Positions 4,168-35,440 of a stretch of DNA of 64,000 nucleotides are shown here, piece by piece (position 1 is the stretch's first letter; each line of letters begins with the position of its first letter). The stretch spans positions 83,343 through 147,342 of the forward strand of contig JBEKMM010000004.1 of NCBI GenBank assembly GCA_050008515.1, written 5' to 3'. This DNA is from Candidatus Limnocylindrales bacterium (GTDB lineage: Bacteria; Chloroflexota; Limnocylindria; Limnocylindrales; CSP1-4). A program made the position numbers and the translations under genes. The notes beneath the pieces were generated by a model. That model had not been told where the DNA came from. It did no database searches and worked only from the letters and a program-made list of their open reading frames with translations.

Positions 4168-5091
4168 TCAGCCCTTGATGGCTCCGCTGAGACCGCCGCC
4201 CCGCAGGAACATACGCTGGAAGATGAGGAACAGCGCGATCGGGAACAATGTCGCGATCGCCAGGGACGCGAGGAAGAGGTCGAGCTGAATGCCCCTCTCG
4301 AGGGTCGGGAGTCGCACCGAGAGCGGCTGGTTGGCCGGAGTCGGCAACACCAGCATCGGCCACAGGTAGTCCTTCCACGTCGCAATCACGGCGAAGACAG
4401 ACACGACGCCCAGGATCGGGCGCGACAGCGGCAGGACGATCGACCAGAAGAGGCGGAACGGGCCGGCGCCATCGACCCGTGCCGCCTCGAAGATCTCGCG
4501 GGGCAGGTTGTCGAAGAACCGCTTGATGATCACGACGTTGAACGCGCTGGCCCCCGCCGGCAGCCACACCGCCCAAAACGTGTCGAGCAGCTTGATGTTC
4601 ACCAGCGGCATGTCCAGGACGGTCAGGTAGAGAGGAACCAGCAAGACGATCGAGGGGACGAACAGAGTGGCCAGCACCAATCCATACAGGAGACGCGTGC
4701 CCCTGGGTCGCAATACCGAAAGAGCATAACCGGCAGTCGTCGCGACAGTGATCTGGCACATCCAAGATCCCACGGCGATCCAGACCGTGTTCATGAAGTA
4801 GCGTTCGATGTGGACCTTCGTGAAAGCCTGGGTCAGAAGGCTCAGGTCGAAGCCGTTGGGCCACAGCGCCATCGGCTGTCGCAACGTGTCCTGGGTCGGG
4901 GTGATGGCCGCCTTGGCCAGCCACAGGATCGGACCCAATCCAACGATGATCAGCAGGATCAGAGTCAGCACGTGGACCGTCTGGACAGTCCAGCGGATCC
5001 TCCGGCGATGCCAATCCGCCAGCGAAACGATGCCGCGCTGCTCGGCCGGAGGAGCCTTTCGACCCACCCGGGAAGGAAGGGACAGCTTCAT
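4168..5091 (-). CDS. carbohydrate ABC transporter permease (MalG-like)
   Basis: Starts MKLSLPS at 5089-5091. Six TM segments and the EAA-type loop (FDNLPREIFEAARVDGAG). 4-nt overlap with the upstream permease. Confidence 0.9.
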   Translation of the reverse strand: MKLSLPSRVGRKAPPAEQRGIVSLADWHRRRIRWTVQTVHVLTLILLIIVGLGPILWLAKAAITPTQDTLRQPMALWPNGFDLSLLTQAFTKVHIERYFMNTVWIAVGSWMCQITVATTAGYALSVLRPRGTRLLYGLVLATLFVPSIVLLVPLYLTVLDMPLVNIKLLDTFWAVWLPAGASAFNVVIIKRFFDNLPREIFEAARVDGAGPFRLFWSIVLPLSRPILGVVSVFAVIATWKDYLWPMLVLPTPANQPLSVRLPTLERGIQLDLFLASLAIATLFPIALFLIFQRMFLRGGGLSGAIKG

Positions 5092-6035
5092 GATGTGGTG
5101 CTCCACGACCGGGTGAGCCAGAAGTAGACCGCGGTGAATACGCCGAGGAATGCCGCCAGCATCAGGCTCAGCGCGGCAGCCTCTCCGAAGTGGCCACCGA
5201 GACTGCTCCCGAAGGCGTACTGGTATATCAGAAGCAGAACGGTCGTCGTCGCGTTGCCCGGGCCTCCCTCCGTCAGCAGGAAGGGCTCCGTGAAGACCTG
5301 GGCCGTGGCGATCAGCTGAAGGATCAGCGTGATGAACAGAATCCCTCGCAGGTGCGGCAGGGTCACGTACCGGATCTTCTGCAAGATCGAAGCCCCATCG
5401 ACCTCGGCCGCGTCGTAGAGCTCCGGTGGGACGCTGAGAAGCGCCGCGAGGTAGATGATCACGGTTCCGCCGAAGGCAGCCCAGGTCGCCTCCACCACTA
5501 TCGATGGCATCGCCATTGCGGCGTCCCCGAGCCATTGGACCGGCCCGAGCCCGACGACGCCAAGGATGGAGTTGAAGGCTCCGTTGGATCCGCCCTTGTA
5601 GAAGACCTTCCACAGGAGCACGGCAACGACGGGCGGAACGACCACTGGCAGATAAGCCAGGGCGCTGTAGAGGCTCCTGAAGCGGCGCGTCTCGCTCATG
5701 ATCACCGCCAGCACGAGCGGCATCGGGTAGCCGAAGATCAGCGCCAGAAGAGCGAAGTAGGCCGTGTTGGCGACGGCCGTGCCAAAGAGCGGATCCCCCA
5801 GGACGTTGGCGAAGTTGTCCAGGCCCACGAAGGTGGGCGTCGAGACGAGGTTGGTCTCCTGAACGCTCATGACGAACGACCGGAGGATCGGGAACCAGGA
5901 GAAGATCCCGAAAATCAATAGCAACGGCAGCAGAAAGGCCAGCGTGCTGAGTCCGTCTCTGCTGACCCAGGTCAGCGGACCACGGCGCTTGCGCACACCG
6001 CTCGCGGCAACTGCCGGTTCAGCCCGAGAGCTCAT
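5088..6035 (-). CDS. carbohydrate ABC transporter permease (MalF-like)
   Basis: MSSRAEP start. Motifs TLPHLRGILFITLILQLIATAQVFTEPF and EAA loop DAAEVDGAS. Confidence 0.9.
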   Translation of the reverse strand: MSSRAEPAVAASGVRKRRGPLTWVSRDGLSTLAFLLPLLLIFGIFSWFPILRSFVMSVQETNLVSTPTFVGLDNFANVLGDPLFGTAVANTAYFALLALIFGYPMPLVLAVIMSETRRFRSLYSALAYLPVVVPPVVAVLLWKVFYKGGSNGAFNSILGVVGLGPVQWLGDAAMAMPSIVVEATWAAFGGTVIIYLAALLSVPPELYDAAEVDGASILQKIRYVTLPHLRGILFITLILQLIATAQVFTEPFLLTEGGPGNATTTVLLLIYQYAFGSSLGGHFGEAAALSLMLAAFLGVFTAVYFWLTRSWSTTS

Positions 6036-6153
6036 TCCTGGGCATCTGCCTTTCTGCGCGTCACCCACCACGCTCTTGAGCGTGAGGGCTCTACTCGGAT
6101 CGGAGGTCTCGATGGGGGCCTGGAATGGCGTAGGCCCCCATCGAGGGTGTCGA

Positions 6154-7590
6154 TCAGCCCTTGTCGATGATCGACTGGATCTGCTTGTTCGCCGCGTCGA
6201 GCAGCGCGTTGATGTCAGCGTTCTTGTCGGTCAGGACCTTCTGAACGACGGGGTCGAGAGCCGCATAGAGATCCTGAGTGTTGTAGCGCGGCTCGGTGAC
6301 CAGAGGCTCGCTGAAGATCTTGCTGGTGAAGGGGGTCATCTGGGCCGTGGGGACGTTGATGTAGTCCTTGATCCAGATCTGTGACTGATCGTAGGTAGCC
6401 TTGTCGAAGATCGGGAGAGCCGGGACACCGACGGGCTGATTGTTGGCCTTGAGGGCCTGTGCGTCAGCCACGGCGCCGTCCTGGGTCCGAAGCTTGTTCA
6501 TGTAGTAGAAGTCGATGAAGTCGACCGCCGCATCGCGCTGGGCGTCGGTGGTGAGGACGTTGACCGCGACGAGGTTGCCGCCGCCGAGGACGCCCGCATT
6601 CGGGTCGCTGGCGAGCGGGATGACGGTGATGCCGTAATCGTCGGCCTTGAGGGCGTTGTTCTGCACCATCGCGGTGTAGAGGTCGGAACCGCCAGTGAAC
6701 ATACCGATCTGGCCGGCGGCGAAGTCCTGGTTGATGGTGCCCCAGTTGTAGTCGAACGTGGCGCCCATCGAATTGTCGTCCCAGCGCAGGCCGTGGAGGT
6801 ATGCGAGGGCGGCCTTGGTGTAGGAGTTGTTGAGGGTCGCGGTGACCTTGCCGGTCTTGGGGTCGACGGACTCCATGCGCCCACCCAGAGAGTAGGTCAT
6901 GGTTGTCAGCTGCCAGCCACCGGTGTTCTGAGTGGCCATCTGGGCGAAGCCGGCGACGCCGGTCTTCGAGGCGATGATCTTGGCGTCGGCCTTGACTTCG
7001 TCCCAAGTCGTGGGCGGCTTGTCAGGATCGAGGCCAGCGGCCTTGAACAGAGTGCGGTTGTAGGTCAGCGACATGCCGTACGCCGTGATCGGCACGGCCC
7101 AGATCTTGCCATCGGTGTCCTCGCCGTTGACGAGCACGTTCGGGTTGAACTTGTCGGCATAACCCAGCGCGCGGACGCGGGAGTCGATGTTGACGATCTG
7201 GTGCTGAGCGATCAGGCCCTTGCCGTCGGTGAACGGGATATTGAATACGGTCGGCAGTGTGCCGCCGGCGAGCTGGGCCGTGAAGGTCGGGGCCGTCCAG
7301 TTGTACTCGTTAGGCACGACTGTGACCCAGGGATACTTGGCTTCGAACTGGCTGATCTGAAGGTTCAGGGCATCGGAAGCTTCCTGCGTGGCGCCCGGCC
7401 GCAGCACGCCGACCGAGATGGTGACGGGCTTATGGGTGTCGACGCTCGGGGCCGCGGTCGCGTTGGGCGCGGTGGTGGGAGCGGTTGTCGGGGTGGTGGT
7501 GCTGGTCGAGGAACTGCAAGCGCTCACGGTGAACATGGCCAACGCGACCATCACCAGCGCCTTGGATATGCGATTGGGCTTGGCTCTCAT
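6154..7590 (-). CDS. sugar ABC transporter substrate-binding lipoprotein
   Basis: Start MRAKPNRISKALVMVALAMFTVSAC with lipobox VSAC, a Thr/Pro-rich linker, and a family-1 extracellular solute-binding fold. Confidence 0.9.
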   Translation of the reverse strand: MRAKPNRISKALVMVALAMFTVSACSSSTSTTTPTTAPTTAPNATAAPSVDTHKPVTISVGVLRPGATQEASDALNLQISQFEAKYPWVTVVPNEYNWTAPTFTAQLAGGTLPTVFNIPFTDGKGLIAQHQIVNIDSRVRALGYADKFNPNVLVNGEDTDGKIWAVPITAYGMSLTYNRTLFKAAGLDPDKPPTTWDEVKADAKIIASKTGVAGFAQMATQNTGGWQLTTMTYSLGGRMESVDPKTGKVTATLNNSYTKAALAYLHGLRWDDNSMGATFDYNWGTINQDFAAGQIGMFTGGSDLYTAMVQNNALKADDYGITVIPLASDPNAGVLGGGNLVAVNVLTTDAQRDAAVDFIDFYYMNKLRTQDGAVADAQALKANNQPVGVPALPIFDKATYDQSQIWIKDYINVPTAQMTPFTSKIFSEPLVTEPRYNTQDLYAALDPVVQKVLTDKNADINALLDAANKQIQSIIDKG

Positions 7591-7683
7591 TTGCTCACTC
7601 ACTCTAGGTTTGTCGCTCAATTGCCCTTGTCGTCTGAGCTGAAAGATCCCCTTGGAGAGCGTGTCTGGGCCGTCACACCATCC

Positions 7684-18244: not shown

Positions 18245-18853
18245 CTAGCGATCCCCCTCGATCCAGCCCTGCCGCTGGGCCACGCGCACGAGCGACGTCC
18301 GGCTCGTCACGTCGTAGCGATCGAACATCCTCCTGAGCTGGCTCTCGACGGTCTTGACGCGGAGGGACAGGCGTTCGGCGATCTCGGAGTTGGCGTGGCC
18401 CTCGGCCACGAGCGCCAGGATCTGGGCCTCGCGCGGCGTCGGCAGGCGTAGAGCCGTGCGTGCGGCTCGGCGGACAGCGTCCGGGAAAGCCGTGCCCCCA
18501 GCGGCGACCGTTCGCACGGCTGTGACGATCTGTCCGATGCTCGCCATCTTCGAGAGATAGCCCTTCGCCCCGTGCTCGACCGCGGCGACGTAGTAGCTCG
18601 GATAGGAGTACGCGCTCAGCATGATGAACGCCGGGCCCGGCGTGTGGCGGGCCAGGATCTCGAGGCCGTCCACCGTCCCGGCCAGGCGGATATCGCACAG
18701 GATGACGTCGGGGGATTGGGCCTCGATCAGGCGGTCGGCTGCGATGCTGTCCTGCGCTGTCCCAACAACGGTCACGTCGAGCTCGCCGCCCAGAAGTGCC
18801 GTGAGCCCCTCGGCGATCGCAGGATGATCCTCGATGATCGCGAGCCGGATCAC
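18245..18853 (-). CDS. LuxR/NarL-family response regulator (REC + HTH)
   Basis: REC domain (IEDHPAIAEGL...ILCDIRLAG) and a C-terminal LuxR-type HTH (REAQILALVAEGHANSEIAERLSLRVKTVESQL). Start overlaps the HK stop by 4 nt. Confidence 0.9.
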   Translation of the reverse strand: MIRLAIIEDHPAIAEGLTALLGGELDVTVVGTAQDSIAADRLIEAQSPDVILCDIRLAGTVDGLEILARHTPGPAFIMLSAYSYPSYYVAAVEHGAKGYLSKMASIGQIVTAVRTVAAGGTAFPDAVRRAARTALRLPTPREAQILALVAEGHANSEIAERLSLRVKTVESQLRRMFDRYDVTSRTSLVRVAQRQGWIEGDR

Positions 18854-21800
18854 GTTCTTGCCCCCGCCCCCGCCTCCGCCCCCGGCCGGCCAGCTGCCCG
18901 GGGCCTCCTCCTGCCGAGCGGGAGCCGAACCATGAACGCCGTTCCCAGGCCGAGGACCGACTCGACCTCGATCGTTCCGCCATGCGCGGTCACGATCTCG
19001 CGCGCCACGTAGAGCCCGAGACCCAGCCCGGCCGACGGCTTCTGCCCCAGCAGCGTATACGGCTGAAACAGCTGCGGCAGCACGCTGCTCCCGATTCCCG
19101 GGCCATGATCGCGGACTTCGACGACGCCCGTCGAGCCGGATCGACGCACGGTCACGTCGACGGTCGACGACGTCGCCGCGTGCTCGACGGCGTTGGAGAG
19201 GAGATTGACGAAGACCTGCCCCAGGCGACCGGCATCCGCCTGGACGAAGATCGGTCCGCGAGTCGACGAGACCCGAATCGGCGGTGCCTTCGGCAGCGCT
19301 CCGGCGACCTCGACGGCATTACGCACGACCGCAGTCAGATCGATCGGTGCGATAGCAAGCTCGAGTCGACCTGCCTGGATGCGGCTCACGTCGAAGAGGC
19401 GCTCTACGAGCTCTCCGATCTGCCTCGTCTGCGCGAGTGCCCGGTTCGCATAGGCACGGGCCTGCGCGGAATCCTCCGGGCCCAAGTGACGCTCGACGAG
19501 CTGGAGGTAACCATGCAGGGCGGCTACCGGGGTCTTGAGCTCGTGACCCGCCGAGGCCATCAAGCGCTCCAAGCTGAGGCGCATCGTGCGCTCGGACAGG
19601 TCCCGGATCGTAACCACTCCGCCCCAGGTCCGGTCGCCGGCGGTGAGCGGCTCGGCCACGGCCTCGAACCAGCGCCGAATCCCCCCAGGCGGCGTCACGG
19701 CGAACTCCATGCGGAACCGTTCACCTCGGGCCGCCCGTCGTTGCGGCCAGTCGGCCCGCGGAATCGGGAGGCCGGCAGCATCCTCAGGCTCGATCTCAGC
19801 CTCGACGCCACCGAAGGTCCGATCGTAGGCGTCGTTGGTCGCGACGATCCGGCCCTCGTGGTCGACCGCGACGACCGCGTCGCCGAGGCTGGCCAGGATC
19901 GATCGGAGGCGATCGTGCTCTTCCTGGAGGCTCAACCTCTGCTGCTCGAGCGCCGTGGTTTTGACACTGAGCTCTTCGGTGCGCGTCGCGAGATCCTCAT
20001 TCGCCACCCGAAGCTCCTCGACGCTCGCGGTCAGTTCCTCGTTGAGGGTTTCGAGCTCCTCGTTGGTGGCCTGGAACTCCTCGTTGACGGTTTCGACTTC
20101 CTCGCGAGTGGCCTGCGCGTCCTCGCTGGCAAGGAGCATCGATTCGTTCGCCGCCCGAAGCTCCGCGACCAGGGCGGCCAGCTCCTCGTTCGCTCGAAGG
20201 AGCCGGCCGTTCGTGGCGACCGCCTTCTCGAGCCGCTGCCGCGTCCGGAGGTCGGCACGACGCTCCTGTTCGAGCCTCGTCGCATCGGTCAGCTCAATGA
20301 CGACACCTTCGACGGCTTGCATCTCGACACGGTAGGGGCGGACCGTGGCCTCCACGAAATGGGTCGTCTCGCTGGCGGCGTCCGAGGGTTCCACCTCGAA
20401 CACGGCCGAGGTGGTCTTGCCGGTCAAAGCGGAGTCGATGGCCGCTCGGATGGCGCTGGGCGGAAGAACCTCCGCGAGGTGGATGAAATCCTGGTCGTAG
20501 GCCGTGCCGTGGATGCCGAGCATCTGGCGTGCCGCGGAGTTGATGCGCAGGATGTAGTAGCGCGGATCGACGACGACGATACCGACGGTCAGGTTGAGGA
20601 GCAGGCTATCCGCCGACGCCGACGAATCCGCCACCCGCCGGACGTCGCGGTGCGTGACACGGATGGCCTGGTCGAGCTGGGATTCCTGGCTACGACGCGG
20701 GCGGAGCACCGCCGGTCGCATCGGTGGGATCGCGTAGCTCCCGGGCAGCCGCCGATAGACGCGCAGGCGCGCCTGCTCCTCTTCGAATGGCTCCGGCAAG
20801 GCCATGACGGTCTCGGATGGACCGAGGGCCAGCCTACCGCCGGGCCGCAACGAGAACGCGAAGGTTTCGAGAGCGATCCGCTGCATCGGCGCGGTGAAGT
20901 AGATCAGGACGTTCCGGCAGAGGAGGAGATCGATCCGCGGGAACGGCGCGCGCTCGCCGAGATCGTGCTCGCCGAAGACCATGAGGGCACGCAGCCGTTT
21001 GCCGACCTCGTAGCCGCCGTCCGATTTCACGAAGTAGCGGTCTCGAGCACCTGCGGGCAGGCCCTTGAGGGCAGCTGGCTGATAGACACCCCGGCGCGCG
21101 AAGGCGATCGCCTCGCGGTCGATGTCGGTCGCGAAGATCCGGACCTCCGGCCACGGGAACTCTTCTCCGAGGGCATCGGCAACGATGATGGCCGCTGAGT
21201 AGGCCTCTTCGCCGGTCGAGCAGCCGGCCGACCAGATGCGGAGCTCCCGCTGATCGCGTCGGGCCTCCGCTATCAGCTCGGGGAGTACACGGCCGCGCAG
21301 GTACTCGAAAAGCTTCGGGTCCCGGAAGAACTCCGTGACCTTGATCAGGAGGCTGTTGACGAGCCGGGCGAACTCCTCGGGATCGGACTCCAGATATGCC
21401 GCGTACGCGGCTAGCGTTGGGCGCGATGTGGCGTTCATTCGGCCGCGCAACCGCCGCAGAATCGTGGCCGGCTTGTAGCTGCTGAAGTCGATGCCGCTTC
21501 GCTCGTGGATCCGTTCGAGGAGGTCGCGGAGCTCGTCGTGATCGGGCCCCTCCGCGGGAGCGTTACCGGCCGCCAGGAGATCGCCCAGGATCCGTCCGAT
21601 CGAGTCGAGGTCAGCCGTCGCGTCGACCAGGGAGGGGGGAATCGAGCTCGGCATCGAGGGGAACATCGCCGTCGCGGGGTTCTCGATCACGACCGCTCCG
21701 CCCGCCTTCTTGACGTGCCACGCTCCCGCGGATCCGTCGGACCCGCTGCCGGTGAGGATCACTGCGATGAGTCCGGGACCGAAGACACCGGCCGCGCTCT

Positions 21801-22152
21801 CCAGCAACACGTCGATGGAGGGTGCGACTGCGCCGGCCTTGGCCGCGCGAAGCCGCAGGGCGCCGGAGCTGATCTCGACGAGCCGGTTCGAAGGAACGAC
21901 GAAGATCACGCCGTCCTCCAGGGCCTCCCGCTCCTCGACCACTCGGACGGGCAGCGTGGCGTGGCGGGCGAGAATCTCGTGCAGATGGCTGGGGCGGCGG
22001 GGGTCGAGATGCTGCGCGATCACGATCGGCGCCGGGAAGTCGGCCGGCAGGCTCGCCACCACGCGCGAGAGCGCCTCGATGCCGCCCGCCGATGATCCGA
22101 TCACGACGAGCTGAGATTCCTGGGGGACCGCCGGTCGCGCCACGATGGCCAC
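18850..22152 (-). CDS. CheB methylesterase-CheR methyltransferase-PAS-coiled coil-PAS-histidine kinase fusion protein
   Basis: CheB (GSSAGGIEAL, IAQHLDP); CheR SAM-binding region (IWSAGCSTGEEAYS); heptad coiled-coil NEELETLNEELTASVEELRVANEDL; PAS modules; HisKA (AGHELKTPVAAL); HATPase_c (GLGLGLYVAREIV). Confidence 0.85.
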   Translation of the reverse strand: MAIVARPAVPQESQLVVIGSSAGGIEALSRVVASLPADFPAPIVIAQHLDPRRPSHLHEILARHATLPVRVVEEREALEDGVIFVVPSNRLVEISSGALRLRAAKAGAVAPSIDVLLESAAGVFGPGLIAVILTGSGSDGSAGAWHVKKAGGAVVIENPATAMFPSMPSSIPPSLVDATADLDSIGRILGDLLAAGNAPAEGPDHDELRDLLERIHERSGIDFSSYKPATILRRLRGRMNATSRPTLAAYAAYLESDPEEFARLVNSLLIKVTEFFRDPKLFEYLRGRVLPELIAEARRDQRELRIWSAGCSTGEEAYSAAIIVADALGEEFPWPEVRIFATDIDREAIAFARRGVYQPAALKGLPAGARDRYFVKSDGGYEVGKRLRALMVFGEHDLGERAPFPRIDLLLCRNVLIYFTAPMQRIALETFAFSLRPGGRLALGPSETVMALPEPFEEEQARLRVYRRLPGSYAIPPMRPAVLRPRRSQESQLDQAIRVTHRDVRRVADSSASADSLLLNLTVGIVVVDPRYYILRINSAARQMLGIHGTAYDQDFIHLAEVLPPSAIRAAIDSALTGKTTSAVFEVEPSDAASETTHFVEATVRPYRVEMQAVEGVVIELTDATRLEQERRADLRTRQRLEKAVATNGRLLRANEELAALVAELRAANESMLLASEDAQATREEVETVNEEFQATNEELETLNEELTASVEELRVANEDLATRTEELSVKTTALEQQRLSLQEEHDRLRSILASLGDAVVAVDHEGRIVATNDAYDRTFGGVEAEIEPEDAAGLPIPRADWPQRRAARGERFRMEFAVTPPGGIRRWFEAVAEPLTAGDRTWGGVVTIRDLSERTMRLSLERLMASAGHELKTPVAALHGYLQLVERHLGPEDSAQARAYANRALAQTRQIGELVERLFDVSRIQAGRLELAIAPIDLTAVVRNAVEVAGALPKAPPIRVSSTRGPIFVQADAGRLGQVFVNLLSNAVEHAATSSTVDVTVRRSGSTGVVEVRDHGPGIGSSVLPQLFQPYTLLGQKPSAGLGLGLYVAREIVTAHGGTIEVESVLGLGTAFMVRLPLGRRRPRAAGRPGAEAGAGART

Positions 22153-22382
22153 ATTATGGTGGGCGGTCGAGTGGAATGGGTCGTGGTCTCCGCCAGACCG
22201 TCCGTCGACGTCGGCTCAGGGTTTCCATCCTCGCAGGACGAACAGCCAAAGCCTACTTTGGGGGCCTGGGTGAGTCCTATCGAGCCGCCGAGACGCGTTC
22301 GAGGCCCCGGGCCTGCTCATGGGACTCATAAGCGCTCTACTGACCCTCGCCGTGACAGTCGGTGTGGCACGGAGGATCAGAC

Positions 22383-22796
22383 ATGACGACGATGGAGGTC
22401 ACGATGGAGACCCAGGACGACGGACAGGAGTCGTTCGAGCGTGTGCGCAGCGCGATCGATCAGGCGCGAACCGAGGTGTCCGAGGCCATCGGGCACGTGC
22501 CGGAGATCGCCGGCCAGGCCCGCGATCGCGCGGAGCATGTCGCCGATCGGCTCCCCGGGGCGTTCGACAGCATTCGATCGGGCGCGGAGAGCACCGTGAC
22601 CCGCCTGCAAACGATGCCCGATTCGGCGCTGCGTCTGCTGGCAGCCGCCTCGCTCGGTTTGGGTGCCGGGCTCCGTCTTGCTGGGGCGCCGCGCCTTGTC
22701 ACGCTGGCCGGCTTCGCTCCCGCGTCGATCCTCGGCTTCGCGATCGTGTCCCGTCCACGCCGATCTCACCAGGCGCCGCACCCGGCTCGGCCCTAG
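22383..22796 (+). CDS. hypothetical protein with C-terminal hydrophobic segment
   Basis: GGAGGA RBS before ATG 22383 (MTTMEVTMETQ). Acidic N-terminal half, C-terminal TM-like stretch. Confidence 0.4.
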   Translation: MTTMEVTMETQDDGQESFERVRSAIDQARTEVSEAIGHVPEIAGQARDRAEHVADRLPGAFDSIRSGAESTVTRLQTMPDSALRLLAAASLGLGAGLRLAGAPRLVTLAGFAPASILGFAIVSRPRRSHQAPHPARP

Positions 22797-22849
22797 CGCC
22801 GAGCGCCGCGGATACGCACCGTCGCACCTGCGCGGCAGGCCCTCCTGGA

Positions 22850-23650
22850 TCAGTGCATGTAAGTTCCGGTCGGATCAACCTCCCGCAAGCCCGAGCGGCG
22901 GAGCGCAAACCACACCAGGTCCGAGAATTCCGCCTGGAGTGCCGGAGTCGCGCCAGAGGCGTCGAGTCTCCCCTCATGCATCAGCTCGTTTCGGACCTTG
23001 TAGGCCCGCTGAGTCAGCGTGCGGCCTCTGACCATGGGATTGGCGATTCCCAGATGGGACAAAGCCCTTGCCACCTTCTGGTGCTTTCGCCCGGGGAAGC
23101 GCTCCGCAAGCGCTTCAAGAATCAACCAGAGGCGAGCGATGGCAGCGGACGGGTTCGTGTCCCGGCATGCTTCCGAGAATAGATCGGCTAACACCTTCGC
23201 TTGAGGGTGATCGGTGAAGGCGTCCAGGACTCTGAGCAACTCCTCCTGCTCCGAGACGATAGGGACATTCGTTGTCTTCCGGTAGTCGGCGCGAACGTAC
23301 CTCGCCTCATACTCCCCATTTCCCAGGTCGACAAACGCCCCCAGCGGCCTGCCGCGCCCGAACTGGCTATACACAAGGGCGGTCGCGACCGCCATGGCTC
23401 TGGATGCCGTGGACGACAGCGCTTCGTCGACTTCCGTCGCCTCGATTCCCCGAAGGACGATGGCCACCATGTCCACGATGGGAGTCCGCCAGCTGGCGAA
23501 GGTGAATTCGCGCCCGAATGAGGCCGCGAACGACTTCGCGGCCTCATGCAAGGCACAGTCTTCGGCGCTCAACGGAAGAACGGCGAACTCATCGAATCTG
23601 AGTTCTTTGGGCACATAGAGCTGATCGAAGAACCATATGACTGTGGCCAT
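22850..23650 (-). CDS. hypothetical protein with C-terminal R-x4-H (HEPN-like) motif, in a lower-GC island
   Basis: Coding region is about 58-62% GC by hand count against about 70% in flanks. C-terminal motif KVRNELMHEG fits the HEPN Rx4-6H signature. Start MATVIWFF at 23648-23650. Confidence 0.45.
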   Translation of the reverse strand: MATVIWFFDQLYVPKELRFDEFAVLPLSAEDCALHEAAKSFAASFGREFTFASWRTPIVDMVAIVLRGIEATEVDEALSSTASRAMAVATALVYSQFGRGRPLGAFVDLGNGEYEARYVRADYRKTTNVPIVSEQEELLRVLDAFTDHPQAKVLADLFSEACRDTNPSAAIARLWLILEALAERFPGRKHQKVARALSHLGIANPMVRGRTLTQRAYKVRNELMHEGRLDASGATPALQAEFSDLVWFALRRSGLREVDPTGTYMH

Positions 23651-23983
23651 GTTGCCCCCTAGACGAGAAGTCTGGGCCGCGCTCGCCACTCTGGACGCTC
23701 TAGCGACAGAAGGCCGGCCCGACCGCCTGACGGCCTGGCCAAGGTCTCCGGCGCTGATGCTTCGCGCGCGGGCATCCTACGCCGTGAAGAGGCGACGGCC
23801 AACCCAACTTCGCTGAGACTGGGACTCCCCTCGACTCCGTTTCCACCGATTCGCGATCGGGGTTTTCATCCTCGCGGGACGCCCGGGGCAGGTCCAGTAT
23901 CGACCAACGACCACGGATCGAAGGCTCCACCGGCTGAATCGCCGGATGCAGGTCCATCGTCCGTCGCCGGGAAGAAGACCACC

Positions 23984-24397
23984 GTGACAATTCAGGAACA
24001 GCGGAGCGTCACCACCGACGCGCCGACCCCCACCGAGTCCGGTGGCTTGAGCAACCGGACCGTGACCAGGCGGCAGCTCGACTTTCGGCCCAGCAACAAC
24101 GAGACAACCCGCCGCATCGTCGTCCTCGTCTTCGGCCTAGTTCAGATCGTGATCGGGCTGCGGATTGTGCTGCTGCTTCTGGACGCCCGAACGGGCAACC
24201 TGCTCGTCTCGATCATCAACAACGTAGGCGGCGCCCTGGCCGCTCCGTTCCAGGGGATCCTGCGCATCAGCGCCGTATCGGCCGGGGGCTCCGTGCTCGA
24301 TGTCGCCGCGGTCGTCGCCCTTGTGGGCTGGACGATCGTCGAGCTGATCGTTCTCTGGAGCCTCGCGATCTTCCGGCACGAGCCCGCTCTCTCCTGA
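23984..24397 (+). CDS. hypothetical membrane protein
   Basis: Two or three predicted TM helices (IVVLVFGLVQIVIGLRIVLLLL, VAAVVALVGWTIVELIVLWSLAIF). Confidence 0.45.
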   Translation: MTIQEQRSVTTDAPTPTESGGLSNRTVTRRQLDFRPSNNETTRRIVVLVFGLVQIVIGLRIVLLLLDARTGNLLVSIINNVGGALAAPFQGILRISAVSAGGSVLDVAAVVALVGWTIVELIVLWSLAIFRHEPALS

Positions 24398-24483
24398 TCC
24401 ACCCCTCAGAGTACGCAGCCCCCGCCGACCGGTTTCCGGTCTACGCCTGCCAAGAAAGAAGAACTTCCGTGGACATTCCTCAA

Positions 24484-24753
24484 ATGACACTCGTTACCTG
24501 GATCGTCGTCGGCGCGATTGCCGGCTTCCTCGCCAGTCTCATTTCCGGGTCCCGTGAGGGCCTGATCATGATGGTCGTGCTCGGAATCGTGGGCGCCATC
24601 GTCGGCGGATGGGTCGCCGTCGATCTCCTCAAGATCTCCGGCGTGACTGGCGTCAACACCCAGAGCATCATCGTCGCCGTGGTCGGCGCACTCATCGTCA
24701 TCTTCGTCGTCGGAAGCCTTGGCGGCCGGCGTCGCTCGTTCGGCTGGCGCTGA
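24484..24753 (+). CDS. GlsB/YeaQ/YmgE family (transglycosylase-associated) small membrane protein
   Basis: MTLVTWIVVGAIAGFLASLI...GIVGAIVGGWV pattern typical of this roughly 85-aa stress-membrane protein family. Confidence 0.7.
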   Translation: MTLVTWIVVGAIAGFLASLISGSREGLIMMVVLGIVGAIVGGWVAVDLLKISGVTGVNTQSIIVAVVGALIVIFVVGSLGGRRRSFGWR

Positions 24754-24864
24754 TCCGAGGGGCGCCCCCCGGGGCGCTCGCCTCGATCTAGCGAAGCCAG
24801 GCAGGGTCGGTCCCCCGTGGAGGGCCGATCCTGCTTCTTTGAGCCAGCGCAGTGGAGCCACCCG

Positions 24865-26027
24865 ATGAGACCGCGCGTCGCCTTCGTATCGACCTATCCA
24901 CCTCGTCGCTGCGGCATCGCAACCTTCACGCGGGATCTGGCGGCTGCCGTGGGCAACCGCGAGATCGTGGCCATTCACCGGTCGGGCGATCCAATGCTGT
25001 ATCCGCTCGAAGTCTCAGGACTGGTCGGGACGGACGATCGCTCGGACTACCTCAGGGCTGCCGAGCGGGTATCTGCATCCGGCACCGAGGTAGTCTCGAT
25101 CCAGCACGAATACGGCCTTTTCGGCGGCCAGGACGGCGCTTACATCCTCGACCTCGTCGATCGCCTCACCGTGCCGGCCGTGGCGACCCTGCACACGGTG
25201 CTGCGACAGCCTAGCGCGTCCCAGCGCGACGTCATGTCGCGACTCCTCGACCGGACCGCTGCCGTCGTGGTCATGTCAAGAGCTGCCTCGAGGTTGCTCC
25301 AGGACGGGTACCTGCTATGTCGCAGACACGGGTGATTCCCCATGGGGTTCCAGATCTGCCGCTCGTCGATCCGGGCCTGCACAAGCCGGACTTCGGGCTC
25401 GACGGTCGGTCGGTGATCCTGAGCTTCGGGCTGCTCGGGCCGGGCAAGGGCTATGAATTGGTGATCGAAGCCATGTCGCGCGTGAGAAGGGATCGACCGG
25501 ACGCCCTCTATGTCGTGCTTGGGGCGACTCATCCGAACCTCGTCCGCACCGAGGGCGAGGCCTACCGCGATCGACTGCGAAGGGCCGTGAACGACCTGGG
25601 CCTTGGCGAGCACGTCCTCTTCGTCGACCGCTTCGTCGGGCAGGAAGAGCTTGGCAGATGGCTCCAGGCTGCGGACATCTTCGTCACGCCATATCCCAAC
25701 CTCGACCAGATCGTCTCCGGCACGCTTTCCTACGCGATGGCTGCGGGAAGACCGGTCGTCTCCACGCCCTTCGCGTATGCCTCCGAGGTGCTTTCCGGCG
25801 GTCGTGGTGTCCTTGTCGCGCCCCACTCCGCGGAGGCCCTGGCGAATGCATTGAGCGACCTTCTCGGCGACAGGGCCCGCCGCTTGGAGATCGGTCGACG
25901 GGCCTACGCCTTCAGTCGCGGACGGATCTGGCGGGAGGTCGGCGCCGCCTATGGAGCGCTATTCGCCCAGGTCGCGCGCGGCGTCGAGATTTCGTACGAC
26001 GCCCCAGCCCTTGCGGCTCATGGCTGA
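24865..26027 (+). pseudogene. GT4-family glycosyltransferase split by a frameshift near 25310-25335
   Basis: Track ORF 24817..25335 encodes the GT4 N-terminal Rossmann half. ORF 25317..26027, in a different frame, encodes the C-terminal half beginning (R)VIPHGVPD. The junction ...LQDGY / VIPHGV matches a contiguous GT4 sequence. Confidence 0.6.
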
Positions 26028-34860: not shown

Positions 34861-35325
34861 TGGCCGCGGCCTCGGCCTGAAGGACGGCCGGGGCGATCGA
34901 GATCTTGATGTCGTCGCCGACGAGGAAGGCGGCGCGACGCCCGCCCTGGAGATTCGGCACGACGCCGCCGATCTCGGCGTCCAGCGTCACGGGTCACGTC
35001 TCGCCGCGGATCGTCAGATCGCCCTGGATCCTGTAGCCGTCGCCACTCCTCTCGATGTGCGTGCTGCGGAACACGAGCTCCGGATACGAGCCTGCGTCGA
35101 AGCAGTCCGCACTCTTGAGGTGCGCATCGCGAGCCTCCATGCCCGTATCGATGGTCGATGCGTCAATATGCGCCTCGACCGTCGAGCGCTCCGGGTCGGC
35201 CTCGTCGAAGTCCACCGCCGCGGTGAACTTGCGGAACTGGCCGTGGCCGTCGTGACCATCATGTGCCCGACGGCGAACTCGATCTGCGAATGGGCTGGGT
35301 TCAGGTCCCAGGTGCTCATCTTCAA
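34861..35325 (-). pseudogene. YceI-family protein gene disrupted by a frameshift and an in-frame TGA
   Basis: Track ORF 35014..35325 gives a YceI N-terminus (STWDLNPAHSQIEFAVGHMMV). The rest of the domain (GQFRKFTAAVDFDEADPERSTVEAHIDASTIDTGMEARDAHLKSADCFDAGSYPELVFRS...DLTIRGET) is in another frame (ORF 34994..35416). After GET comes TGA, then homologous PVTLDAEIGG... continues to about 34861. Confidence 0.55.
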
Positions 35326-35440
35326 CTCCTAGCGTTTCGGTGCTCTCGTGGACCCGACCCGGATCGTTCACTAAGCACCTAAGTGCTATAGTTGTTGAGC
35401 ACGCAAGGATCTGCAAGTGGGCAATACGAAGGAGCTATTC

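What the first reader, a model, noticed from the sequence alone, without database searches (positions are those of the whole stretch)
22850..23650. Single-gene lower-GC island encoding a protein with an R-x4-H (HEPN-like) C-terminal motif
The roughly 800-bp coding region is about 58-62% GC by hand count of two 60-nt samples, against about 70% in flanking genes. That suggests horizontal acquisition. The 266-aa product ends with ...RAYKVRNELMHEG..., matching the Rx4-6H HEPN RNase signature common in abortive-infection and toxin proteins. It sits in a poorly conserved stretch of hypothetical and small membrane genes. It is a candidate stand-alone defence or toxin gene.
Basis: partly seen in the sequence, partly recalled or inferred. 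Interest (0 to 1): 0.6.

Follow-up and report, generated by a model that had tools for sequence, protein, structure and literature searches.

The report
Stand-alone HEPN-like gene, unnamed family
This lower-GC gene from a peat-soil Chloroflexota bacterium encodes a 266-residue protein of a small unnamed family whose C-terminal half looks like a HEPN ribonuclease domain, most like that of the anti-phage protein ApeA. This makes it a plausible but untested single-gene RNA-cutting toxin or defence protein, not a recently acquired island.

Summary
The gene lies at 22850-23650 on the minus strand and encodes 266 aa. Its GC is 61.5% against 68.9% for the window, the lowest of about 54 ORFs. RNELMH sits at residues 220-225.

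A bare Rx4H motif means little, because 43% of shuffles of this protein contain one. The evidence comes from relatives. In a rare, unannotated family (52 clusters at 50% identity among 1.84 billion), W175 and E179 are invariant and R220, N221, H225 and G227 are invariant or nearly so, down to about 20% identity.

A confident AlphaFold model (pLDDT 89) places the motif at the end of helix 3, the invariant Glu in helix 2, and an insert between helices 2 and 3. This is the published HEPN layout. A profile of the C-terminal domain marginally matches the ApeA HEPN domain (E 8e-4; 0 of 5000 shuffles), with R220 falling on catalytic R502.

No Pfam, PADLOC or NCBIfam family matches the window protein. 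No antitoxin or MNT partner is present.

This is not a recent island. Nine related species carry the gene at 76-90% identity, with dN/dS about 0.19. It does behave as a discrete cassette of about 1 kb with its own upstream block, found in at least five contexts.

About a fifth of close orthologs have lost the His. A defence role is untested.

The parts
22850..23650 (-). CDS, 266 aa including the stop codon. It matches NCBI MGD0018634.1 (locus tag ABSD62_05215, Candidatus Limnocylindrales bacterium) exactly.
   Evidence: dN/dS median is 0.19 across 16 orthologs.
23276..23650 (-). N-terminal alpha/beta domain (residues 1-125). Predicted order is b-b-a-b-a-b-b. A77 and Q96 are nearly invariant family-wide, and an FGRGR loop (97-101) is invariant in the close clade. 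Function unknown; inferred to be a regulatory or sensor domain.
   Evidence: AF2 model m60a9718798e2. Conservation. Only weak, non-significant fold matches to PII and 2H-phosphoesterase-like proteins.
22883..23215 (-). C-terminal HEPN-like helical domain (residues 146-256). Predicted H1 149-162, H2 167-181, an insert (helix 189-199 plus a hairpin), H3 212-226, H4 235-253.
   Evidence: Topology criteria from PMC3710099.
23114..23131 (-). LWLILE (residues 174-179) in predicted helix 2. W175 and E179 are invariant in 42 of 42 diverse family members. E179 is the candidate second acidic active-site residue.
   Evidence: It aligns with NLWIALESL of Ec3ApeA.
22976..22993 (-). RNELMH (residues 220-225), the Rx4H motif at the end of predicted helix 3.
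   Evidence: In the ungapped HMMER match, R220 falls on Ec2ApeA R502, the residue changed in the catalytic mutant.
23651..23805 (-). Conserved upstream block of about 155 nt that travels with the gene. It holds a promoter-like TTGGCC (23797-23802) - 17 nt - TAGGAT (23774-23779), a GC-rich leader of about 120 nt, and an SD-like AGGGGG (23655-23660).
   Evidence: 71-92% identical in 8 loci from different contexts. No covariation, no Rfam family, and below the threshold of the sigma-70 scan.
22810..23858 (-). Cassette of 1049 bp: 208 nt upstream, the CDS, and 40 nt downstream. It is present here between the two small flanking genes and replaced by 90 unrelated nt in relative L007.
   Evidence: Empty-site comparison. 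Sharp drops in identity at both ends.

Best explanation
The gene encodes a stand-alone two-domain protein of an unnamed family. It has an N-terminal alpha/beta domain of about 125 aa, followed by a C-terminal HEPN-superfamily domain closest to the HEPN domain of ApeA.

The window copy keeps the full predicted active-site set: E179 in helix 2, and R220-N221-x3-H225 at the end of helix 3.

Inferred mechanism, by analogy with characterised HEPN enzymes:
- Two HEPN domains dimerise to form a composite active site.
- This site is a metal-independent endoribonuclease.
- Activity is held in check and released by the fused N-terminal domain, not by a separately encoded antitoxin.
- This would be a one-protein sensor-effector, as in ApeA, Csm6 or RnlA.

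The gene is an accessory cassette of about 1 kb with its own upstream control region. It has been kept, and has moved around, within one peat-dwelling Limnocylindrales clade.

Shown here: gene reality, family, conservation pattern, predicted topology, marginal similarity to ApeA, lack of a partner, and cassette behaviour. Inferred only: RNase activity, dimerisation, the regulatory role of the N-terminal domain, and any defence or toxin role.
For: 1. Family-wide conservation of W175 and E179 (42 of 42), R220 (41 of 42), H225 (38 of 42), N221 and G227, down to about 20% identity. This includes long forms of 460-536 aa.
2. The AF2 model (pLDDT 89.2, pTM 0.75) places Rx4H at the end of H3, the invariant Glu in H2, and an insert between H2 and H3. 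This is the layout that Anantharaman et al. 2013 give for HEPN.
3. The C-terminal profile against PDB sequences gives Ec3ApeA as best hit (E 8.3e-4), with two collinear stretches. Ec2, Ec4, Thr1 and Ec1 ApeA and CRISPR-associated proteins (8y75/8y7f, depositor name only) follow.
4. The real ApeA sequence scores 22.7 bits against a maximum of 13.3 in 5000 shuffles. hhalign gives probability 49% and E 1.7e-4, collinear over both motifs.
5. R220 maps onto Ec2ApeA R502, the residue changed in the catalytic mutant.
6. The top Foldseek PDB hit is the HEPN protein 2hsb (probability 0.77), and HepT 5yep is also listed.
7. There are weak hits to PADLOC CARF_HEPN models and to Pfam HEPN_RiboL-PSP.
8. 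Purifying selection: dN/dS 0.19.
9. The gene is solo in every context examined.
Against: - No curated HEPN, Abi or defence model matches the window protein at E<=10.
- The fold match is not significant (E 0.09, TM 0.42).
- The ApeA link is marginal. RNase A, an obvious false positive, reaches E 0.009 in the same search.
- H225 is replaced in 6 of 27 close orthologs, by R, R, Q, Q, I and D. One of the Q cases has a His one position later. R220 is replaced in 2 of 27. These genes still look constrained.
- The gene is not in a defence island and is not near mobility genes in this clade.
- No homolog was found in phage, plasmid or viral-contig collections.
Confidence: 0.55

Rival explanations
1. 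The fold is HEPN-like, but the protein is not primarily a toxin or defence RNase. It would instead be a lineage-specific housekeeping or stress protein, for example an RNA- or ligand-binding regulator or a processing RNase, and its catalytic site would be dispensable in this clade.
For: - Nine related species carry it, at about the same divergence as the neighbouring CheB/CheR kinase gene (84-87% against 76-87%).
- dN/dS is 0.19 in both domains.
- His225 is lost in about a fifth of orthologs, and dN/dS is not obviously higher in those (L007 0.24, L011 0.21).
- The most invariant clade-level segments lie outside the motif: MATVIWFFDQLYVP, FGRGRPLG and HPQAK..ADLFSEACRD.
- Neighbours are ordinary membrane or stress genes such as PspA and Transgly_assoc.
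- The 2013 survey describes inactive HEPN domains that act as binding domains.
Against: - Outside this clade, R, N and H are kept in 31 of 32 sequences, which argues for catalysis as the ancestral function.
- Distribution is patchy and rare, at 52 clusters among 1.84 billion.
- The gene relocates as a cassette.
- One distant member lies next to an integrase, DUF3987 and NYN genes.
- These features are typical of accessory or conflict genes, not core genes.
Confidence: 0.25
2. It is not HEPN at all. The motif and helical topology would be convergent, and the C-terminal domain would belong to another helical family, such as the MauJ-like domain of unknown function.
For: - There is no significant structural hit, and no HEPN model matches the window protein.
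- Seven of 24 family members give sub-threshold hits to Pfam MauJ (PF17419), best 19.8 bits against a cut-off of 28. The six whose coordinates were printed match in one register, roughly residues 158-260 against profile positions 2-87 of 116.
- Rx4H is common by chance.
Against: - Chance does not explain invariance of R, N, H and G together with W and E across sequences only 20% identical.
- The two motifs are collinear with those of ApeA, and the Arg falls on the catalytic Arg.
- MauJ may itself be HEPN-related. That could not be checked here, so this rival may not truly exclude the HEPN reading.
Confidence: 0.12
3. This is a recently acquired single-gene genomic island carrying an orphan toxin.
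For: - It has the lowest GC in the window.
- It has sharp cassette boundaries.
- It occupies at least five genomic contexts among close relatives.
Against: - The same gene sits at the same site in relatives L004 (87% identity) and L018 (76%), and L004 shows the same GC dip.
- Its divergence tracks that of its neighbours.
- No integrase or transposase is nearby, the nearest tRNA is 8.4 kb away, and there are no convincing flanking repeats.
- The GC3 deviation is only -1.3 sd.
Confidence: 0.06

Closest known systems
ApeA. A single-protein anti-phage HEPN system with the HEPN_ApeA domain, solved as PDB 9hxi (Ec2ApeA) and 9hxj (Ec3ApeA). It cleaves tRNA anticodon loops and is activated by deoxydinucleotides (bioRxiv 10.64898/2026.01.26.701840).
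   Same: - Both are solo genes with no antitoxin.
- Both have a C-terminal HEPN domain with the same two motifs in the same order: 'LW..LE.L' in helix 2 and 'Y..RN..(V/M)H.G' in helix 3.
- R220 aligns with catalytic R502.
- Both have a non-catalytic N-terminal part that could gate activity.

   Different: - ApeA is about 590 aa, with helical N-terminal and Mid domains, large HEPN inserts, and decamer or dodecamer rings.
- This protein is 266 aa with an alpha/beta N-domain of about 125 aa.
- No PADLOC or Pfam model matches the window protein, so any ApeA model among them does not match either.
- The similarity is only marginal and confined to the HEPN core.
HepT/MntA (type VII HEPN/MNT toxin-antitoxin; the minimal HEPN, PDB 5yep and 7ae8)
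   Same: A four-helix HEPN core with Rx4H. HepT 5yep appears among the Foldseek hits.
   Different: - There is no adjacent MNT or nucleotidyltransferase gene in any context.
- An N-terminal domain is fused here.
- No DUF86 or HEPN Pfam hit was found.
Pfam PF17419 MauJ (methylamine utilization protein MauJ, function unknown)
   Same: This is the only Pfam family hit recurrently by family members: 7 of 24, and in one register over helices 1-3 for the six whose coordinates were printed.
   Different: - All hits are below the gathering score (at most 19.8 bits against 28).
- The window protein itself gives no hit.
- No mau genes lie nearby.
- Whether MauJ is itself HEPN-related could not be checked here.
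Sensor-fused HEPN RNases (Csm6/Csx1 with CARF-HEPN; RnlA/LsoA)
   Same: The architectural logic of an N-terminal alpha/beta domain followed by a C-terminal HEPN. Single members give weak hits to PADLOC CARF_HEPN models.
   Different: - No significant CARF similarity was found.
- No CRISPR or cyclic-oligonucleotide genes lie nearby.
- This protein is much smaller.

Membership tests
HEPN superfamily (criteria of Anantharaman et al. 2013, PMC3710099) | An Rx4-6H motif, with the residue after R usually N, D or H, conserved across the family | tested here: met
   R220-N221-x3-H225. R is kept in 41 of 42, N in 36 of 42 and H in 38 of 42 diverse members, and all three in 11 of 11 in the set that includes long forms. 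Within the close clade H is kept in only 21 of 27.
HEPN superfamily (criteria of Anantharaman et al. 2013, PMC3710099) | The motif lies at the end of helix 3, or the start of the H3-H4 loop, of a four-helix up-down bundle, often with an insert between H2 and H3 | tested here: met
   The AF2 model (pLDDT 89) gives H1 149-162, H2 167-181, an insert at 189-211, H3 212-226 (motif at 220-227) and H4 235-253. This rests on a predicted structure, not a solved one.
HEPN superfamily (criteria of Anantharaman et al. 2013, PMC3710099) | A second conserved acidic residue in helix 2, typically within Ex3[KR] | tested here: inconclusive
   E179 is invariant (42 of 42) and lies in predicted helix 2. However, the literal Ex3[KR] spacing is not present, because position 183 is E or variable.
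HEPN superfamily (criteria of Anantharaman et al. 2013, PMC3710099) | Significant sequence or structure similarity to an established HEPN domain | tested here: inconclusive
   - Profile against PDB sequences: Ec3ApeA at E 8.3e-4.
- 0 of 5000 shuffles reach the real score.
- hhalign probability is 49%.
- Foldseek to 2hsb gives E 0.09 and probability 0.77.
- No Pfam HEPN family matches the window protein.
HEPN superfamily (criteria of Anantharaman et al. 2013, PMC3710099) | Metal-independent endoRNase activity that depends on R and H | not testable with these tools
   This needs biochemistry.
ApeA defence system | Full architecture of about 590 aa: helical N-terminal domain, Mid domain and HEPN_ApeA domain | tested here: not met
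   The protein is 266 aa with an alpha/beta N-domain. Neither Pfam nor PADLOC returns any model, ApeA included if they hold one, at E<=10.
HepT/MntA type VII toxin-antitoxin | An adjacent MNT (nucleotidyltransferase) antitoxin gene | tested here: not met
   No such neighbour was found in the window or in about 15 related loci.
   Pfam, PADLOC and NCBIfam return nothing for the window protein at E<=10. No Abi family appears among the listed hits for other family members.
Pfam MauJ (PF17419) | Score at or above the gathering cut-off of 28 bits | tested here: not met
   The window protein gives no hit. The best family member reaches 19.8 bits.
PII nitrogen regulatory protein (the label JGI gives this exact protein) | A match to the P-II family profile and the b-a-b-b-a-b order | tested here: not met
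   The label is seen. No Pfam hit was found. The predicted order is b-b-a-b-a-b-b. Only weak Foldseek matches to PII appear (E>1).
Recently acquired genomic island | Atypical composition, plus mobility genes or a tRNA or flanking repeats, plus absence from close relatives | tested here: not met
   - Composition is atypical.
- No integrase or transposase was found, the nearest tRNA is 8.4 kb away, and only chance-level repeats occur.
- The gene is present at the same site in L004 and L018, and in nine related species.

The most novel reading that the evidence does not exclude
This is the founding example of a new, compact single-protein sensor-effector RNase family with a novel alpha/beta sensor domain and an ApeA-type HEPN domain. 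It would act as an abortive-infection or stress toxin. It would spread within genomes as a self-contained cassette of about 1 kb, with promoter, leader and gene but no recombinase of its own. The recurrent loss of the catalytic His in some lineages would reflect ongoing selection against self-toxicity.
Probability: 0.2. Interest if true: 0.6.

Novelty: new variant of a known kind. Interest (0 to 1): 0.4.

Why it matters
If the prediction holds, this adds a very small ApeA-like HEPN effector with a previously undescribed N-terminal domain. It would be a tractable minimal model for how a fused domain gates a HEPN RNase without an antitoxin.

It would also give a first functional handle on an unannotated family found in uncultured peat Chloroflexota and a few other lineages. 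The family might link the unexplained Pfam family MauJ to HEPN.

In practical terms, JGI labels this exact protein 'nitrogen regulatory protein PII', and that label appears to be wrong.

The finding is not surprising in kind. HEPN domains are known to recombine with many partner domains, and nothing here has been tested experimentally.

Tried and rejected
- Pfam, PADLOC and NCBIfam on the window protein at E<=10 returned nothing. PHROGs on 42 family members gave only scattered weak hits to families of unknown function.
- The first AF2 run, with only close homologs, gave a poor model (pLDDT 68). Its Foldseek search was uninformative.
- The upstream leader was tested as a structured RNA or riboswitch. 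No Rfam family reached its gathering score and there were 0 compensatory pairs, so there is no support. Indels between relatives break the frame of every candidate upstream ORF.
- The sigma-70 scan found no promoter at its threshold.
- The flanking direct repeat D1 (18 nt, 83% identity) was rejected as a target-site duplication. One copy starts at the cassette edge, but the other lies 64 nt outside the other edge, inside a conserved flanking gene.
- The flanking 137-144-aa genes were rejected as partners, because they are absent from most other contexts.
- Hits of residues 91-132 to giant surface proteins (VWA, RHS-repeat and Ig-like repeat proteins) were treated as spurious repeat matches.
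- Searches for family members in plasmids, phages and IMG/VR found none.
- A literature search for MauJ found nothing useful.
- The third large homology search, with the C-terminal profile, did not reach any annotated family.

Full report
**What is there**

The ORF list shows a 279-codon frame at 22850..23689 on the minus strand. All 27 full-length close homologs begin at MATVIWFF, and 25 of them are 266 aa, the other two being 264 and 274 aa. An AGGGGG Shine-Dalgarno-like site lies 5 nt before the ATG at 23650. The 13 codons between the upstream GTG and this ATG are interrupted by indels in relatives.

The protein is identical to NCBI MGD0018634.1, a 'hypothetical protein' of a Candidatus Limnocylindrales (Chloroflexota) MAG.

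**Composition**

The 840-nt ORF is 61.5% GC, against 68.9% for the window (sd 2.6% for same-size sliding windows). This puts it in the lowest 0.2% of windows and makes it the lowest of about 54 crude ORFs. GC3 is 74% against a mean of 83% (sd 6.6%), a mild deviation.

Other ordinary genes are almost as low. These are an ABC sugar transporter at 4168-7620 and a YceI gene at 34994-35416.

The GC dip is shared by the 87%-identical ortholog in L004. It is weaker or absent in more distant orthologs.

**Is it a recent island?**

No.

- A scan of one genome per GTDB species found the gene in nine Limnocylindrales or Chloroflexota MAG species, several of them from fen or SPRUCE samples, at 76-90% identity.
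- Where neighbours are shared, they are about as diverged as the gene. The CheB/CheR kinase is 84-87% identical and the target 76-87%.
- Pairwise dN/dS has a median of 0.19 (range 0.11-0.31), and is similar in both halves of the protein.
- No integrase or transposase lies nearby, and the nearest tRNA is 8.4 kb away. The only flanking repeat does not sit on both boundaries.

The gene does behave as a discrete unit, however. It occurs in at least five contexts:

- the CheB/CheR-kinase and Transgly_assoc neighbourhood (window, L004, L007, L013, L015, L018, L024);
- between CorA and a sortase-like gene (L010, L020);
- next to acylphosphatase and DNA polymerase III delta' genes (L011, L022);
- after CoA-transferase genes and before a TetR/MFS pair (L006);
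- between a 4HBT gene and an MFS/TetR pair (L009).

Identity to the window drops from 71-92% to background about 150 nt upstream of the ATG and about 35 nt after the stop.

In L007 the two small genes that flank the target here are adjacent. That comparison defines a 1049-bp segment, window 22810-23858, which is replaced by 90 unrelated nt in L007.

**The protein family**

No Pfam, PADLOC or NCBIfam model matches at E<=10, and no PDB sequence matches.

An exhaustive profile search of 1.84 billion cluster representatives found only 52 at E<=0.001. Most are 250-330 aa. A few are 460-536 aa, with an extra N-terminal region; one of these is in Pedobacter alluvionis (L019 7518-9128).

In alignments reaching about 20% identity:

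- W175 and E179 are invariant.
- R220, N221, H225, G227, Y217, A161, L157, A77 and Q96 are invariant or at least 90% conserved.

This matters because a bare Rx4H motif occurs in 43% of shuffles of this protein. The conservation is informative; the motif alone is not.

**Structure**

With only close homologs, AlphaFold gave pLDDT 68. With the 42-sequence diverse alignment it gave pLDDT 89.2 and pTM 0.75.

The model has two parts:

- An N-terminal alpha/beta domain, with strands at 2-9 and 22-30, a helix at 33-44, a strand at 58-69, a helix at 74-96, and strands at 101-108 and 114-118.
- A C-terminal helical domain, with helices at 134-147, 149-162, 167-181, 189-199, 212-226 and 235-253.

Anantharaman et al. 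2013 describe HEPN as two alpha-hairpins, with Rx4-6H at the end of helix 3 running into the H3-H4 loop. They also describe a conserved acidic residue in helix 2 and frequent inserts between helices 2 and 3.

The model fits point for point:

- E179 lies in helix 167-181.
- The insert spans 189-211.
- R220...H225-G227 closes helix 212-226.

Whole-model Foldseek is not significant. Its top PDB hit is nevertheless the HEPN protein 2hsb (E 0.09, probability 0.77), and HepT 5yep is also listed.

**Link to ApeA**

A profile of the C-terminal domain alone (A10) was searched against PDB sequences. Ec3ApeA was the best hit, at E 8.3e-4. Two collinear stretches matched:

- '..LFseA......vrlWtiLEtLa' against 'LHSMALKSENVENQLLNLWIALESLV'
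- 'llraaYaiRNafvHeGr' against 'LRRIYRTRNNIVHSGK'

Ec2, Ec4, Thr1 and Ec1 ApeA and CRISPR-associated proteins (8y75/8y7f) follow in the list.

I recovered the Ec3ApeA C-terminal sequence from an IMG/VR contig. It is identical to 9hxj_A residues 658-1029 apart from the GTG start codon, which ORF listing renders as M. The family HMM scores it at 22.7 bits, against a maximum of 13.3 in 5000 shuffles. hhalign against an Ec3+Ec2 ApeA alignment gives probability 49% and E 1.7e-4, collinear across ApeA's large insert.

The Ec2ApeA catalytic mutant R502A changes the R of 'YRTRNLIVH'. In the ungapped match (chain 492-515 against profile positions 65-89), that R corresponds to the family's R220.

The link is marginal. 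RNase A, an evident false positive, reaches E 0.009 in the same search.

Seven of 24 family members also give sub-threshold hits to Pfam MauJ. The six whose coordinates were printed match in one register. Whether MauJ is itself HEPN-related could not be tested here.

**Mechanism**

The HEPN-type active-site layout in the window copy is shown, but only as a prediction.

The rest is inferred from characterised HEPN enzymes (the 2013 survey; the ApeA preprint):

- dimerisation to form a composite site;
- metal-independent RNA cleavage;
- control by the fused N-terminal domain, not by a partner protein.

The third point rests on the absence of any conserved neighbour, and of any MNT gene, in any context.

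**What speaks against a simple toxin or defence story**

- Within the close clade, H225 is replaced in 6 of 27 clusters: by R twice, by Q twice, and by I and D once each. One of the Q cases has a His one position later. R220 is replaced in 2 of 27.
- Outside the clade, 31 of 32 sequences keep the His.
- The orthologs that lack His (L007, L011) show no obvious relaxation, with dN/dS of 0.24 and 0.21 against the window copy.
- The most invariant clade-level segments lie outside the motif.
- Neighbours in this clade are ordinary metabolic, membrane or stress genes.
- No homolog is found in phage, plasmid or viral-contig collections.

Among distant members, one lies near an integrase-like gene, DUF3987 and an NYN gene. 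Another sits 33 nt downstream of an adenosine-deaminase-family gene.

**Verdict**

- HEPN-like: probably yes, of an ApeA-like type, in a new and unnamed architecture.
- Recent horizontal island: no. It is an old accessory cassette that relocates within the clade.
- Stand-alone: yes.
- Defence or toxin: plausible but untested, with some evidence pointing to a non-catalytic or non-defence role in this clade.

This is a new variant within a well-known superfamily, and of moderate interest.

Noticed in passing
window 23651-23805 (minus strand): A conserved block of about 155 nt upstream of the gene is as conserved as the coding sequence (71-92%) in 8 relatives from different genomic contexts. It holds a promoter-like TTGGCC-N17-TAGGAT and a GC-rich leader of about 120 nt. 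L012 and L024 keep the promoter-like part but appear to have a leader about 70 nt shorter. No Rfam family reaches its gathering score, there is no covariation, and there is no conserved small ORF.
   Followed up: partly
alignment A2, column H225; loci L007, L011, L006: The putative catalytic His is nearly invariant in distant family members, but it is replaced by R, Q, I or D in about a fifth of the closest orthologs. These orthologs otherwise remain well conserved.
   Followed up: partly
L026 158-2046; L027 1-1484: In one distant subfamily (P0058, 288 aa), the homolog lies 33 nt downstream of, and co-oriented with, a 329-aa adenosine-deaminase-family gene (PF00962). In L027 the upstream gene is cut by the contig end and has no Pfam record, but the 33-nt spacing is the same. 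This may be a two-gene unit or a coincidence.
   Followed up: no
L019 7518-9128 (Pedobacter alluvionis DSM 19624); P0068, P0074, P0078, P0080: These are long forms of the family (460-536 aa). They carry an extra N-terminal region of about 140-190 aa with no Pfam match, and larger inserts before the RN...H helix.
   Followed up: partly
protein P0001 (identical to the window gene product): JGI/IMG names this exact protein 'nitrogen regulatory protein PII'. No Pfam match supports this. Only weak Foldseek similarity of the N-terminal domain to PII proteins was seen.
   Followed up: yes
window 18245-22152 (minus strand): A 1100-aa fusion protein combines CheB methylesterase, CheR methyltransferase, PAS, HisKA and HATPase domains. 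A LuxR-type response regulator overlaps it by 4 nt. The pair is conserved next to the variable region in several relatives.
   Followed up: no
window 24817-26027 (plus strand): A glycosyltransferase (Glycos_transf_1) appears split into two overlapping ORFs of 172 aa and 236 aa, overlapping at 25317-25335. This may be a frameshift or a pseudogene. The same split is called on the identical contig L001.
   Followed up: no
window 4168-7620 (minus strand): This is a second lower-GC stretch (62.6-63.3%). It encodes ordinary ABC sugar-transporter components (BPD_transp_1 and SBP_bac_1), which shows that low GC in this window is not specific to foreign-looking genes.
   Followed up: partly
window 22362-24753 and loci L004, L007, L013, L015, L018, L024: The neighbourhood next to the CheB/CheR kinase operon is rearranged in almost every relative. 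It holds two hypothetical genes of 137-144 aa, a Transgly_assoc gene, a YbaK-like gene and a DUF8253 gene. This marks it as a local hotspot of gene-order change.
   Followed up: partly
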